A stretch of DNA of 64,000 nucleotides, from assembly GCA_951406725.2 (NCBI GenBank), contig OX597839.1:13764001-13828000 (forward strand), read 5' to 3'. Under the pieces are notes generated by a model, which ran no database searches, was not told the DNA's origin, and was given only the letters and a program-made list of their open reading frames with translations. The DNA comes from Octopus vulgaris. Lineage: Eukaryota. Shown piece after piece: positions 15,791-59,420 of this stretch; position 1 is the stretch's first letter, and each line of letters opens with the position of its first letter. The position numbers were made by a program, and so were the translations under genes.

Positions 15791-16150
15791 TCCTTTTACT
15801 CTCCAGAGGTATGTTGTCGTGGTTTGAAGAGGTGTTGAAAACCCTTCCACCAATATTGCTGACATGGTTCTTTAACACATAAGCAAGTGGATATGAATGA
15901 AGTGTTTGTTTTGTTTTTTGTATGGTTTGTACACGCGTGTATATATATATATATATATATATATACTACAAAATTAGAAAATGGAGAAACATACTTAAAT
16001 CAATAAAACATCAACTATCAGATGATACCCAATCAATACTTTATTACACCATTACATATCAGTAAAGGCATTATACAAAATATACAGTAAATGTAAATAG
16101 ACAAGGAGATATAAGTATAAAATTTCAAATATAATATGTAATTAAATCAT

Positions 16151-16262
16151 ATCTGACAGCTGTTTCGGCAGCAAGGGCAGTCATACCTCATTTAACCTAT
16201 AAGCCATAAAGGCAGGTATAAATGAGGCATTAACAAGGATGCCCCACGGCCTCTTCAGAGAA
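16151..16262 (-). ncRNA. Type-I hammerhead ribozyme with long stem II
   Basis: Minus strand: tct-CTGAAGA-ggc...(~90-nt hairpin)...gcc-GAAA-cagctg-TC^aga; palindromic stem III ACAGCTGT. Confidence 0.8.
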
Positions 16263-16334
16263 TTAAATTTGTTATCCCATGGTGGGTTGAATTTTCAACC
16301 CCTATCTCATTTTATATATATATATATATATATT

Positions 16335-16722
16335 CTCTTTCTTTTACTCTTTTACTTGTTTCAGTCATTTGACTGCGGCCATGCTGGAGCACCGCCTTTA
16401 GTCGAGCAAATCGACCCCAGGACTTATTCTTTGTAAGCCCAGTACTTACTCTATCGGTCTCTTTTGCCGAACCGCTAAGTGACGGGGACGTAAACACACC
16501 AGCATCGGTTGTCAAGCAATGCTAGGGGGACAAACACAGACACACAAACACATATACACACACACATATATATATACATATATACGACAGGCTTCTTTCA
16601 GTTTCCGTCTACCAAATCCACTCACAAGGCATTGGTCGGCCCGGGGCTATAGCAGAAGACATTTGCCCAAGATGCCACGCAGTGGACTGAACCCGGAACC
16701 ATGTGGTTGGTTAGCAAGCTAC
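16335..16722 (-). mobile_element. SINE family A
   Basis: Near-identical to the full-length copy 42491-42896. Confidence 0.9.
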
Positions 16723-16880
16723 ACACACACATATATATATATATATATATATATATATATATATATATATATATATATATATATGTATATATATATATAT
16801 ATATATATATATATATATATATATATATATATATATATATATATATATATATATATATATATATATATATATATATATAT

Positions 16881-17158
16881 GGAGGCGCAATGGCCTAGTG
16901 GTTAGGGCAGCGGACTCGCGGTTTCGATTCCCAGACCGGGCGTTGTAAGTGTTTATTGAGCGGGAACACCTAAAAGCTCCACGAGGCTCCGGCAGGGGGT
17001 GGTGATCCCTGCTGTACTCTTTCACCACTCTTTCTTCTGTTGGCCTGCTCGCTTAGCCAGCGGGGTGGCGTCGTTCGAAGGCTAAAACAATGCGAGCGCA
17101 TTGTGACCAGCGATGTGTAAAAACATCTGATGGTCTGGTCGGTCACGTGATCACGTGA
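16881..17158 (+). mobile_element. tRNA-headed SINE family B (tail type 1)
   Basis: Head ggaggcgcaatggcctagtggttagggcagcggactcgcgg..ttcgattccc with A/B boxes; tail ggtcacgtgatcacgtga. Confidence 0.85.
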
Positions 17159-17440
17159 TATATATATATGTATATGGTAATGCTGAGTAAAAAAAAGATA
17201 CGAAAGAGACATTTATTTAATTTTCTTTCAAACTAATAAATATATACGTATGTTTTTGAAAATTTGCGTTCAATTTGATAAAATTTGGAGTTTTAATTCT
17301 TGTTTGACAACCATATTTCCTGGTATTAGCCCAGAGTGGCAAAAGTTTGCTTGCAAAGTTATCGGTCATTTGACGGGTAACTAACTCTCAGGTTTATTTA
17401 TGTGTGTGTGTGAGCATATATATATATATATATATATATA

Positions 17441-55934: not shown

Positions 55935-55973
55935 AAGAAAGACCGGTTTCGCGTTTAGCTTTTCAAATTTCTT
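55935..55973 (-). ncRNA. Hammerhead-like motif, U3:A8 variant, in the pLTR
   Basis: aagaaa-t-TTGAAAA-gc(taaac)gc-GAAA-ccgg-TC^tttctt. Confidence 0.65.
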
Positions 55974-56018
55974 GCGACGTTATGTTTATGTTGAATAGGG
56001 TTATCGTTATGTTTATGT

Positions 56019-57125
56019 TCAAAAGAGTTCTAAATAAGGGGAGGTAATGAGTGATTTCTTCCGGTGTAAGGGAGATAATCGCTTAAAAATTTTTTCCTTT
56101 CCCTTGGTGTGAGAATTTCTCTGTATCAGTATGTTGGGATGGTTAAGTCTGGGCTTGTACTTTTCAATGAAGAATGTTTCCTTGTTTAGTCTAATTTGTG
56201 TTGATGATCCGATAGCACATTGGTAAAATGGAAAGATTAAAAATTGTGGTAGTAGTTGCTTTGCGCATTTCTCAATGTGCTCACTAAAAGGTATCATTCT
56301 GTATTCTGGGAATGCAATCTGTTGTCGATGCAGTGTGCATCTACGTCTGAGTGATAGTCCCGTGGATCCCACGTAGTCTTGGTGGCAGCCCGAGCATTTT
56401 ATGACATAAATTATGTTTTCAGAGGCACAAGTAAAGTTAGATTTGATCTTGAATTTCTGTCCCTCTTTAAAGAGGAATTCTGATCCTTCTAGCAGGTTTG
56501 GACATGTTGCACAGTTCGATCTACCGCATTTTTTTACTTTTGCATCCGTAATATCAGAAGACAATTTTGCCTTTGTGAGAATCTTTTTAAGTGATTTAGG
56601 TTGTTTGTAGCTTTTAATGATTTGGTGTATGTTTAGAATTTCCTTTAATTTGGGGTCCTTATGAAGTATTGGTAAATTCTGGGTGATGATAGTGAAGGCT
56701 TCTTTGTTTCTGGGGTTGTATGTAGATATGTAAGGTAGTATTTTCGGGGAAGGTGTGTTGTTGTGTTGAACTTTTCTTAAAGTTTCCATGTTGATTTCTG
56801 TTGCTCGTCTGATCCCATCCTCTATGAGTTGAGCTGGGTAATGTCTGTCAATTAGGGTGTTTTTGAGTTCTTGCAGTCTAAAGTTCCTGGTATTTTGTTC
56901 TGACACTATTGTGCATATCCTTCTTGCAAGGTTGAAGGGGATGTTTGTTTTAGTGTGTCTTGGGTGGCATGAATTAAAAAGAAGGTATTGTTTGGCGTCT
57001 GTGGCTTTGTAAAAAATGTCTGTTTCTATTTTAAGGTTAATTTTTTTAATTAGTATATCCAAGAACGGGAGCTCCTTTTGGTTGTATTCCATTGTGAACT
57101 GTATATTTGGGTTTATGCTGTTCAA
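56019..57125 (-). CDS. Penelope-like RT C-terminus/thumb + GIY-YIG endonuclease (5'-truncated)
   Basis: NIQFTME..LPFLD..YKAT..SCHP; CxxxxCxxC linker; NIIYVIKCSGCHQDYVGST..RRRCTLH..E..FIEKYKPRLN. Confidence 0.92.
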   Translation of the reverse strand: MNSINPNIQFTMEYNQKELPFLDILIKKINLKIETDIFYKATDAKQYLLFNSCHPRHTKTNIPFNLARRICTIVSEQNTRNFRLQELKNTLIDRHYPAQLIEDGIRRATEINMETLRKVQHNNTPSPKILPYISTYNPRNKEAFTIITQNLPILHKDPKLKEILNIHQIIKSYKQPKSLKKILTKAKLSSDITDAKVKKCGRSNCATCPNLLEGSEFLFKEGQKFKIKSNFTCASENIIYVIKCSGCHQDYVGSTGLSLRRRCTLHRQQIAFPEYRMIPFSEHIEKCAKQLLPQFLIFPFYQCAIGSSTQIRLNKETFFIEKYKPRLNHPNILIQRNSHTKGKEKIFKRLSPLHRKKSLITSPYLELF

Positions 57126-57140
57126 TAAACATAACGTCGC

Positions 57141-57179
57141 AAGAAATTTGAAAAGCTAAACGCGAAACCGGTCTTTCTT
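57141..57179 (+). ncRNA. Inverted duplicate of the pLTR hammerhead-like motif
   Basis: Identical sequence in the inverted pLTR. Confidence 0.65.
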
Positions 57180-58336
57180 CTAAATTATGTCATTATAAGA
57201 AAAAAAAAATTTTTTTAATATTCTTCAAAAATTTCTTTGATATTCTTCAGACATATTGACGCAAATATATATTTTTTAACATTTAAGCCTTCTGTAGTTT
57301 TTTCACTTTTTACTATTTTATATATATATATATATATATATATATATATATATATATATATATATATATATATATATATATATATATTTGTAGGTATGTA
57401 TATAAACGACGGGCTTCTTTCAGTTTCCGTCTACCAAACTCACTTTGGACGGCCCGAAGCAATAGTAGAAGACACATGCCCAAGGTGCCACGCAATTGGA
57501 CCGAACCCGGATCCGTGTAGTTGGGAAGCAACCGCCTTACAACACAGCTACTCCTACTGTGTATATGTTTGTGTATATATAAATATATATACACATGTAC
57601 ATATGTATATATACATACATTTATTATGCATACATGCATATATATATATGCATACATACACATGTGTATATATATATATGTCATACATAGATAACTACAT
57701 ATACATGTACATATAATATATATTATATATTTATGTATATGTGTATATATATACACACACACATATATATATAGATATACACATACATACACGCGTGTGA
57801 GAGTGTGGTTGGAGAGGAAGTCAGAGAGACAAAGAGGAGGTGAGCAAGAGAGAAAGGGATGGTTGGATGTTGTATATTCTAAACGTGACTTAAAACCCTT
57901 TCATAGGAGTTTTCTTGTTACTGTTGTTGCTGTGTCAGTGGTACGGGATGGGAGGAAGCCATATTAAATGTTGATAGCAATGTAAGCGGCGTTTTTTATA
58001 TGTCTCTGCAACGAGAGGGGTCGGTCACCGGTTTCCACTCAGGAAGAGGAGTGCAGATTGTTATCCATGCATGTCTAAGAATATGAAAAAAGTATGCGAA
58101 CACAGACGGGTGTTACGTTAATGTGTGTCTTTGGATTGTTATATGACACTGTGTGAATATAGCTATACATGTATATGTGTTTCTGTGCGGGAAAACAATG
58201 TGTGAGTGTGGATATGTATGTATGTATGTATGTATGTATGTATGTATGTATGTATGTATGTATATGTGTGTGTATATATATATATATATATATGTATGTA
58301 TGTATGTATGTATGTATCTATCTATCAATATACATA

Positions 58337-59420
58337 GGCGCAGGATTGGGTTCGTGGCATGTAGCTTGTTTACCAACCACATGGTTCCGGGTTCAGTCCC
58401 ACTGCGTGGCACCTTGGGCAAATGTCTTCTACTATACCCTCGGGCCGACCAAACCCTTGTGAGTGGATTTGGTAGACGGAAACTGAAAGAAGCCCGTCGT
58501 ATATATATATATATATATATATATATAAATTGAGATAGGGGTTGTGAGTGCATCCCACTATGGGATAACATGTATCCAATATACTGCAAGTAAAGCACCC
58601 AACAAAGTTAATACATAAATGTTAAGAATTGCGATGCAATCAATTCATTCACTGTATTATATGGGCAAAGGTAAAATGTTCTAATATATTGTCTTGACCA
58701 ACTGTAACCTTGAATATAGAACATATGTATGTATATTGCTGTATATTATTATTATGTATATGTATATACATATGTATAGGAATATGGGTATATGCACTCA
58801 TATGTATGTGTATATTATATATTATAGGTATGTACCCACTCTTATATGAGTGTACCTCCTCTGATTTTCATGTTTAATTTAGTTTGTTCTTCATAATCTC
58901 TGAAGAGCCCTTGGGATATTTTTGTAAGTGTCTCATTTATAACTACATATTAACCTATCACACATGGCTAATATGAGCATAATGAGGCACCCATATCTGC
59001 ATGGCTGAAACAGCTGTAAGATGTAGTTTATATTTATATTTGTATTTATTTATATTCACTTATACATACTGTACTTATTGTTTCTTATTACTCATTGATG
59101 TACATTGTTTTGTTCTATATTATTATGTTGATTATTGATTAAGATGTATTTCTCCATTTCCTTATTTTGTATTATATATATATATATATATATATATATA
59201 TATATATATATATATATATATATATATATATATGGGGTGGGTCTATGTTTCTCCTCACAACATCGCTTGTGTTTAAGTCCCCGTATCTTAGCAGTTCGGC
59301 AAAAGATCCCGATAGAATAAGTACTAGGCTTACAAAGAATGAGCACCGAGGTCGATTTACTCGACTAAAGGCGGTGCTCCAGCATGGCTGCAGTCAAATG
59401 ACTTAAACAAAAGAATAAAA
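58337..59420 (+). mobile_element. SINE A split by a hammerhead cassette inserted in its internal (TA)n
   Basis: Head 58337-58500, (TA)n, insert ~58528-59170, (TA)n, tail 59235-59420. Confidence 0.8.
58896..59022 (+). ncRNA. Type-I hammerhead with long stem II (relative of 16151-16262), base of stem II imperfect
   Basis: atct-CTGAAGA-gccc..gtgtctcatt..aatgaggcac..ggct-GAAA-cagctg-TA^agat. Confidence 0.72.

What the first reader, a model, noticed from the sequence alone, without database searches (positions are those of the whole stretch)
15965..59170. Short non-coding hammerhead-ribozyme cassettes dispersed through (TA)n tracts
Seen: five type-I hammerhead folds with canonical CUGANGA/GAAA/NUH cores at 16151-16262(-), 28322-28366(-), 46528-46619(-), 54367-54446(+) and 58896-59022(+). 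Each has a palindromic or near-palindromic stem III and sits in a 0.2-0.65-kb ORF-less AT-rich insert, mostly bounded by (TA)n. Established: minimal hammerheads with palindromic stem III occur in Penelope-like element pseudo-LTRs and in retrozymes, and are thought to cleave as dimers. Inference: these are several families of non-autonomous ribozyme retroelements or solo pLTRs, mobilised by the resident PLEs and biased to TA repeats. Counting the PLE-linked variants, that is about one motif per 8 kb.
Basis: partly seen in the sequence, partly recalled or inferred. Interest (0 to 1): 0.78.

Follow-up and report, generated by a model that had tools for sequence, protein, structure and literature searches.

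The report
Long-armed hammerheads of Hydra-type Penelope retroelements
The five hammerhead (predicted self-cutting RNA) motifs are real: four are leftover tail ends of long Penelope-like jumping genes and carry an unusually long ribozyme arm, and the fifth is a 353-base protein-less tandem repeat that likely borrows the same kind of enzyme; cutting itself is untested.

Summary
All five hammerhead cores are at the stated places and are not chance (0 strict hits in 100 shuffles). Each belongs to a family with roughly 600-1,900 candidate copies. The interpretation needs changing. Four cassettes (16151, 46528, 54367, 58896) are 5'-truncated 3' ends of coding Hydra-clade Penelope-like elements (PLEs). 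Longer copies lead into an RT/GIY-YIG ORF (intact, 954 aa, in one family); units are 4.9 and 5.6 kb. Only 28322 is non-autonomous: a 353-nt tandem retrozyme with no partner ORF found. All families end at two fixed sites that run into (TA)n. In inverted insertions one arm uses each site (30 of 30, scripted), also for the retrozyme, which points to PLE-driven mobilisation. What departs from the papers read: helix II is a 55-100-nt covarying rod (listed Hydra hammerheads have 3-10-nt loops); over 6,100 such cores share one helix III (4 in controls); elements and tails are longer than described. The 58896 copy has a private stem-breaking change. Cleavage, expression and circular RNA are untested. 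New variant of a known kind.

The parts
15963..16312 (-). Family A insertion: 3' end of a 5.6-kb Hydra-clade PLE. The direct arm 16275-15963 ends at the short (S) site; an inverted piece 16267-16312 starts at the long (L) site; (TA)n on both sides.
   Evidence: tandem period 5600 in L300
16155..16258 (-). Hammerhead A: CUGAAGA, 85-nt helix II rod, ACAGCUGU helix III, C17, 3-bp helix I
   Evidence: rod z -5.4
28109..28375 (-). Family B insertion: 5'-truncated single unit of a 353-nt tandem retrozyme, ending at its L site, (TA)n on both sides
   Evidence: monomer fold z -6.8
28328..28360 (-). Hammerhead B: CUGACGA, 4-bp helix II with 6-nt loop, ACUCGAGU helix III, C17, 6-bp helix I
   Evidence: 689 exact family cores vs 0 control
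46380..46958 (-). Family C insertion: 3' end of a 4,866-bp Hydra-clade PLE. Direct arm 46711-46380 (L end), inverted internal piece 46709-46820, (CA)n, inverted S-end piece 46922-46958.
   Evidence: intact 954/952-aa ORF in L131 and L135
46535..46613 (-). Hammerhead C: CUGAUGA, 60-nt helix II, ACGAUUGU helix III, A17, 6-bp helix I
   Evidence: rod z -2.0
54080..54490 (+). Family D insertion (older family, copies 84-89% alike): 3' end of a Hydra-clade PLE ending at its S site; 5' boundary approximate
   Evidence: (EN hits about 1.1 kb upstream in L144, L145)
54370..54443 (+). Hammerhead D: CUGAUGA, 55-nt helix II, ACAGCUGU helix III, A17, 3-bp helix I
   Evidence: rod z -0.5, not above shuffles
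58528..59172 (+). Family E insertion (relative of A): inverted L piece 58528-58683 plus direct arm 58675-59172 ending at the S site; (TA)n on both sides
   Evidence: (62-74% protein match to A upstream in L146)
58900..59018 (+). Hammerhead E: CUGAAGA, 100-nt helix II rod, ACAGCUGU helix III, A17; this copy has a private change that breaks the base of helix II
   Evidence: rod z -3.0
56019..57155 (-). 5'-truncated ORF of a different PLE (Cx5CxxC linker, GIY-YIG; Neptune/Nematis-like), 15,443 candidate copies; not the parent of the five cassettes
55941..55966 (-). Minimal hammerhead with U3-A8 core behind that ORF
57148..57173 (+). Inverted second copy of the U3-A8 hammerhead, the arm ending in (TA)n

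Best explanation
Four cassettes are 5'-truncated ends of coding Hydra-clade Penelope-like retrotransposons and the fifth is one unit of a 353-nt non-coding tandem retrozyme; all were likely inserted by a PLE protein that would nick (TA)n on both strands and prime reverse transcription at two fixed sites downstream of the hammerhead. Shown: copy families, link to ORFs, clade motifs, two fixed 3' ends, TA junctions, one end of each kind in inverted insertions, covarying long helix II. Inferred: one priming event per DNA strand (one at S, one at L), with the two cDNAs stopping early and joining head to head; the template is uncleaved tandem (for B possibly circular) RNA; the ribozyme cuts only as a dimer through the self-complementary helix III and probably with help of the element's protein, trimming read-through transcripts. 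The long helix II most likely acts as a stable scaffold or protein-binding rod that makes up for a 3-6-bp helix I.
For: Copies: 1438, 1870, 1156, 595 and 986 first-look candidates; best 40 scored 96-100% alike for A, B, C, E and 84-89% for D. ORF link: C unit 4,866 bp with an intact ORF 1.5 kb upstream of the core; A unit 5,600 bp, ORF in two frames in the copy read; E and D by tblastn upstream. Hydra motifs RWK, DKT, CxCx5C, CxxC, CxH; 348 homologues, median 708 aa in the 120 listed. S ends run straight into a TA run in 59 of 61 cases against a 4.5-11% background. Inverted insertions are S+L in 30 of 30 by script for A, B, C, E, 56 of 57 by eye with D and B2 added. Frangieh 2024 shows two RT start sites, two-strand cleavage and extension, and a protein-assisted hammerhead for an anole PLE. 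No pile-up of 5' ends at the A cut site: 4 pattern hits genome-wide, 2 of them truncations. Helix III: intramolecular pairing probability at most 0.01, duplex -5.8 to -11.1 kcal/mol. Helix II in 18 A/E-type families: 82% of cells paired, 12 of 25 pairs with double changes, 38 such cells vs 20.6 in shuffles, 0 of 500. B: 353-nt period, 15 of 25 loci (some overlapping) with 2 or more tandem cores; older subfamily B2 keeps the same ends.
Against: No cleavage, expression or circle was shown. Li 2026 found cleavage in only 1 of 9 predicted frog retrozyme dimers, and Cervera 2014 found low activity for PLE hammerheads. No partner ORF was found for B or B2, so which PLE moves it is unknown. D and E were linked to ORFs by partial matches only; no intact D or E ORF was seen. 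Pfam gives no family for the C protein, the PDB sequence search gave 0 hits, and the fold prediction did not return; clade assignment rests on motifs and homologues. The long helix II is not more stable than shuffles in D nor in many of 30 sampled 45-75-nt motifs, and RNAalifold on the raw alignment found only 9 pairs; the 25-pair structure was drawn by hand from these sequences, which favours it. One B2 locus (L261) is S+S. Empty target sites were not seen, so TA as target rather than added sequence is inferred.
Confidence: 0.87

Rival explanations
1. One reading: all five are short non-autonomous ribozyme elements (retrozymes or solo pLTRs) moved in trans.
For: The window copies are short and ORF-less, most sampled copies lack the ORF, and B fits. 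In two loci short direct periods or inner-deleted forms of long-armed families occur (L299, 1.6-kb tandem; L223), so some non-autonomous derivatives may exist.
Against: 5' ends of A, C, D and E copies are scattered while 3' ends are fixed, and the longest copies run into a Hydra ORF. No fixed short unit exists for these four.
Confidence: 0.07
2. The long-armed hammerheads are catalytically dead relics or purely structural elements; the core is kept for another reason (protein binding, translation) and the rod grows neutrally.
For: Helix I is only 3 bp in A, D and E with low predicted pairing; hammerhead mutants did not affect insertion in vitro in Frangieh 2024; no sign that cleaved RNA is copied.
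Against: Core, UH site, helix III palindrome and pairing at both helix bases are kept across many families (over 6,100 pattern hits vs 4 controls; swap test obs 3.7 vs 2.9 and 3.5 vs 2.5 pairs of 5, above all 2000 swaps). The patterns themselves fix the core, so only the pairing is independent evidence.
Confidence: 0.2
3. B is a satellite or LINE-driven SINE-like repeat that spreads by local tandem duplication, not by PLE machinery.
For: It is tandem and no PLE partner sequence was found.
Against: Copies are dispersed, short (1-4 cores per arm seen), end at two fixed sites in (TA)n and form S+L inverted pairs like the coding families; no poly(A) or LINE-like tail was seen.
Confidence: 0.08

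Closest known systems
Hydra-clade Penelope-like elements (Craig et al. 2021, PMC8557442), incl. Hydra-1_Obim of Octopus bimaculoides
   Same: Single ORF with RWK, DKT, CxCx5C linker, CxxC/CxH, C-terminal GIY-YIG; sense hammerhead near the 3' end; (TA)n insertion; partial tandems, inverted 5'-truncated copies and a tail at one end.
   Different: Described as generally under 3 kb; here 4.9 and 5.6 kb, with Asn-rich inserts (954 aa vs about 710) and 1.5-2.1-kb 3' regions. The 26 Hydra hammerhead rows in File S2 have loop 2 of 3-10 nt and 9-10-nt helix III segments; here helix II spans 55-100 nt and helix III is an 8-nt palindrome. Tails are about 120-190 nt vs 30-40.
Minimal PLE hammerheads (Cervera and de la Pena 2014, PMC4209133)
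   Same: Type I, short helix I, self-complementary helix III, mostly single motifs from truncated PLEs, head-to-head pairs 100-700 bp apart, thousands per genome, U3-A8 variant.
   Different: Helix II there is 7-8 bp; here a rod of roughly 20-35 predicted bp. Two spike-moss PLE-X motifs with 29-35-nt loop 2 in Craig's File S2 are a partial precedent.
Metazoan non-LTR retrozymes (Cervera and de la Pena 2020, PMC7229834; Li et al. 2026, 10.64898/2026.07.22.740005)
   Same: Family B: 353-nt non-coding tandem unit, under 45% GC, one type-I hammerhead per unit, highly structured monomer.
   Different: Cephalopods do not appear in the text read. Here the PLE link rests on insertion anatomy (two start sites, S+L inversions, TA target), not on pLTR homology; circular RNA not shown.
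Poseidon element of Anolis carolinensis (Frangieh et al. 2024, PMC11167929)
   Same: Two internal RT start sites downstream of the hammerhead define the tail; AT-rich target; uncleaved RNA as template.
   Different: In vitro there was no strand difference in start site, whereas genomic inversions here use each site once; start sites lie before the ORF (C: Met about 45 nt after the L end) rather than inside it.

Membership tests
Hydra-clade PLE (families A, C, D, E) | Single ORF with RT and C-terminal GIY-YIG EN | tested here: met
   C intact; A in two frames; profile match to the window PLE thumb/EN, probability 94%; atlas hits 0.94-0.98, some with RVT_1. D and E partial only. No Pfam hit.
Hydra-clade PLE (families A, C, D, E) | RWK motif and DKT in place of DKG | tested here: met
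   RIRWK/ADKTG in C, RIRWR/SDKTS in A (definition); not seen for D, E
Hydra-clade PLE (families A, C, D, E) | CxCx5C linker, CxxC and CxH in EN, no CCHH | tested here: met
   CKCRIKSKC/CQLC/CVH in C; CNCRNRNKC/CSLC/CIH in A; CNCRNRDKC in E; absence of CCHH read by eye
Hydra-clade PLE (families A, C, D, E) | (TA)n insertion preference | tested here: met
   S ends into TA: 53 of 54 for A, C, E; empty sites not available
Hydra-clade PLE (families A, C, D, E) | Hammerhead near the 3' end, tandem/inverted copies, tail | tested here: met
Hydra-clade PLE (families A, C, D, E) | Generally short (<3 kb), compact hammerhead (descriptive, not diagnostic) | tested here: not met
   4,866 and 5,600 bp; helix II 55-100 nt
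Hydra-clade PLE (families A, C, D, E) | RT phylogeny groups with named Hydra elements | not tested
   No tree built; compared by eye with printed Hydra alignments
Non-LTR retrozyme (family B) | Short non-coding tandem unit with a type-I hammerhead in each unit | tested here: met
   353-nt period, up to 4 cores per arm seen, no ORF
Non-LTR retrozyme (family B) | Homology to the pLTR of an autonomous PLE | tested here: inconclusive
   No partner among 30 relatives by helix III or 30 B2 loci; not an exhaustive search
Non-LTR retrozyme (family B) | Expressed as linear and circular monomers | not testable with these tools
   Only contigs of runs with guessed type were offered
Non-LTR retrozyme (families A, C, D, E) | Short non-coding tandem unit | tested here: not met
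   Units are multi-kb and coding
Hammerhead ribozyme, type I | Core C3-A9, G12-A14, A15.1-U16.1, H17 with helices I-III | tested here: met
   helix II base broken in the window copy of E
Hammerhead ribozyme, type I | Self-cleavage at H17 | not testable with these tools
   needs an in vitro assay

The most novel reading that the evidence does not exclude
This genome hosts a radiation of giant Hydra-type PLEs with a distinct hammerhead subclass: a 45-105-nt helix II rod, kept by covariation across many families, works as a docking arm for the element's protein and makes the ribozyme a protein-switched dimer. The strict one-S, one-L rule shows that a two-headed RT complex primes both DNA strands from different sites, and family B carries the genomic footprint proving that animal retrozymes are inserted by this same PLE reaction.
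Probability: 0.35. Interest if true: 0.72.

Novelty: new variant of a known kind. Interest (0 to 1): 0.5.

Why it matters
What the hammerhead does for Penelope-like elements and which enzyme moves animal retrozymes are both stated as open in the papers read. This window leads to a young, intact Hydra-clade element (family C) and a young retrozyme (family B) in the same genome, so both questions can be tested with one protein and two RNAs. Hammerheads with 45-105-nt helix II exceed usual descriptor sizes and were not listed by Rfam here, so ribozyme counts in such genomes are probably too low. The S+L rule gives a sharp constraint for models of PLE insertion.

Tried and rejected
Rfam scan: only U6 and microsatellite-driven miRNA matches in the rows shown. 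Window repeat finder: swamped by microsatellites. The window's own PLE remnant as parent of the cassettes: rejected, it carries a different U3-A8 motif; its ORF next to a B copy in one locus (L041/L042) and a Hydra ORF fragment abutting a B2 copy in L244 are single cases. Search for B's partner: none found. Cleaved RNA as template: a few arms start near the cut site, but a genome-wide pattern for family A found no pile-up (covers only 15 nt upstream of the site and one subfamily). Junction microhomology: 14 of 37 junctions overlap by 1-14 nt, the rest are blurred by strict scoring; inconclusive. A splice acceptor at A's S end: not kept in E. Sequencing runs: no RNA holder listed; contigs of three runs guessed as RNA and one untyped run cover family C and end at the S and L sites, with no joints; not evidence on expression. 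Pfam and PDB sequence searches gave nothing for the Hydra proteins. Fold prediction never returned and a dimer prediction was not run, so there is no structural result. Lunse et al. 2017 is not held. Earlier findings: none for this genome or sequence.
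Full report
Observation. The window is G000:C26:13764001-13828000 of a 2.8-Gb genome. Named homologues of the protein found below come from Argonauta and Octopus, so I infer an octopod host. A strict descriptor gives 4 hits in the window and 0 in the reversed window, the complemented window and 100 dinucleotide shuffles. The fifth (E, 58900) fails only because this copy has GCCC at the base of helix II, where 23 of 25 stored copies have GGCC. 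Helix II spans 85, 14, 60, 55 and 100 nt in A, B, C, D and E. Two further motifs with a U3-A8 core sit at 55966(-) and 57148(+) on a truncated PLE with a Cx5CxxC linker; 34 of the 36 motif rows from 30 loci of that family have this core.

Families. Each cassette is repetitive: 1438 (A), 1870 (B), 1156 (C), 595 (D) and 986 (E) first-look candidates, 40 scored each; best hits are 96-100% alike except D (84-89%). In 25-30 loci per family the 3' ends are fixed and the 5' ends scattered. Longer stretches show what lies upstream. C is a 4,866-bp unit in partial tandem with an intact ORF of 954 and 952 aa in two copies and 1.5 kb between stop and hammerhead. A is a 5,600-bp unit; its ORF is in two frames in the copy read and 49% identical to C over the N-terminal half. 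E has a protein 62-74% identical to A upstream, and D has endonuclease matches about 1.1 kb upstream. The proteins carry RWK, DKT, GLYRDD, CxCx5C, CxxC and CxH, the marks given for the Hydra clade (Craig 2021, section 11). The 120 listed homologues of 348 have a median of 708 aa; C is longer through two Asn-rich inserts. Pfam and PDB sequence searches gave no hit, and the fold job did not return.

Family B differs. It is a 353-nt unit, tandem in 15 of 25 loci (some overlapping), with no ORF; the monomer folds at -122.5 kcal/mol, z -6.8, with the hammerhead formed. 689 exact cores were counted against 0 in the control. An older subfamily, about 80% alike, keeps the unit length and both ends. 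No coding partner was found.

Insertion anatomy. Every family has two fixed 3' ends, S and L, about 194 (A), 122 (C), 187 (E) and 45 (B) nt apart. S ends run directly into a TA run in 59 of 61 cases, against 4.5-11% of window positions; L ends were defined by a following TA run, so they are not a test. Many insertions have two arms joined head to head. By script, 30 of 30 such insertions in A, B, C and E have one S and one L end (loci whose probes failed or whose ends were not terminal drop out, and D and B2 were not given). By eye, with D and B2, it is 56 of 57, the exception being L261; about ten undetermined loci were left out. Three window copies (A, C, E) follow the rule. Craig 2021 notes that a 30-40-bp tail is often at one end only, and Frangieh 2024 traces the tail to two RT start sites, with both DNA strands cut and extended. 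I infer one priming event per strand. In many loci both arms contain the same segment, so two RNAs or strand displacement are needed. 5' ends do not pile up at the cut site of A, in line with uncleaved templates.

The long arm. Genome patterns with helix III ACAGCTGT gave 2,873 hits for a 45-75-nt helix II and 3,270 for 76-105 nt, against 2 and 2 in reversed controls; ACTCGAGT with 15-44 nt gave 181 against 0. The listed rows fall into many sequence families. In two samples of 30, helix I and the base of helix II pair better than in all 2000 partner swaps. For 18 A/E-type sequences a hand-drawn 25-pair structure has 82% of cells paired, 12 pairs with double changes and 38 such cells against 20.6 in shuffles, 0 of 500; RNAalifold alone found only 9 pairs. 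Rod stability is strong in A and E (z -5.4, -3.0), weak in C (-2.0) and absent in D (-0.5). Only a few of the sampled families could be tied to a Hydra ORF, so that all 6,100 belong to Hydra elements is an inference. Helix III is predicted not to form within one molecule but to pair between two. Unrelated intact motifs in flanks numbered about 29 in 675 kb by eye, 1 in the control.

Literature. Seen: Craig 2021 (passages, sections 11 and 15, supplement part 2 with the Hydra table and File S2, further supplement passages); Frangieh 2024 (parts 1-3 of 4); Cervera 2014 (parts 1-2 of 4); Cervera 2020 (passages and Discussion); Li 2026 preprint (parts 1-3 of 5); passages of PMC13282606, PMC8967140, PMC6765202 and PMC13725137. 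Hydra elements in octopus, their (TA)n targeting, dispersed single PLE hammerheads, the U3-A8 variant and retrozymes as PLE derivatives are all in print. An octopus repeat annotation lists 31 recently active PLE families and does not mention Hydra or ribozymes in its main text. I did not find 55-100-nt helix II hammerheads in animal PLEs, or a counted S+L rule, in searches. The 26 Hydra rows of File S2 have loops of 3-10 nt, but two spike-moss motifs there have 29-35-nt loops. Lunse 2017 was not held, and the supplements of the Cervera papers and of the preprint were not seen; they may hold long-armed variants.

Verdict. The reading is right on PLE origin and TA targeting, right on non-autonomy for one cassette of five, and misses that four are stubs of coding Hydra-clade elements with an unusual ribozyme. 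New variant of a known kind; interest 0.5.

Noticed in passing
window 21873-21979 (-): Near-complete U6 snRNA copy (110.6 bits) between CA repeats, probably a retrocopy; adjacent to a dispersed repeat at 21634-21869.
   Followed up: no
window 28737-31268 (+) and 33758-36150 (-): Two related LINE RT ORFs (RVT_1) facing each other, 73-80% alike, forming a large imperfect inverted repeat; a third RT ORF at 50121-51443 (-).
   Followed up: no
window 55700-57320: Neptune/Nematis-like PLE remnant in inverted arrangement with U3-A8 hammerheads; it also has one long and one short end. Two helix I variants occur in the family.
   Followed up: partly
window 53359-53760 (-): Second, diverged GIY-YIG PLE fragment (42% to the first) with no hammerhead seen downstream.
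   Followed up: partly
window 1754-2305 (+), 20573-20992 (+): Pif1 helicase fragment (Helitron-like) and a mariner-type transposase fragment.
   Followed up: no
window 552-1346: 165-nt tandem repeat, first copies 97-100% alike.
   Followed up: no
L244 741-1771 (oriented): A Hydra ORF fragment directly abuts the 5' end of a B2 retrozyme copy on the same strand, with no ORF continuation after it; could be a template switch, single case.
   Followed up: partly
L299 and L223: A 1.6-kb tandem of a long-armed hammerhead with no ORF match and an N-terminal ORF piece only 0.6 kb before a core: possible internally deleted non-autonomous Hydra derivatives.
   Followed up: no
L179-L208: Older families with ACTCGAGT helix III, 38-43-nt helix II and visible covariation at helix bases; one (L197) has a Hydra endonuclease match upstream.
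   Followed up: partly
protein P0109: A database protein named as an ankyrin-repeat protein of Octopus sinensis is 69% identical to part of the family C RT; probably a gene model that swallowed a Hydra element.
   Followed up: no
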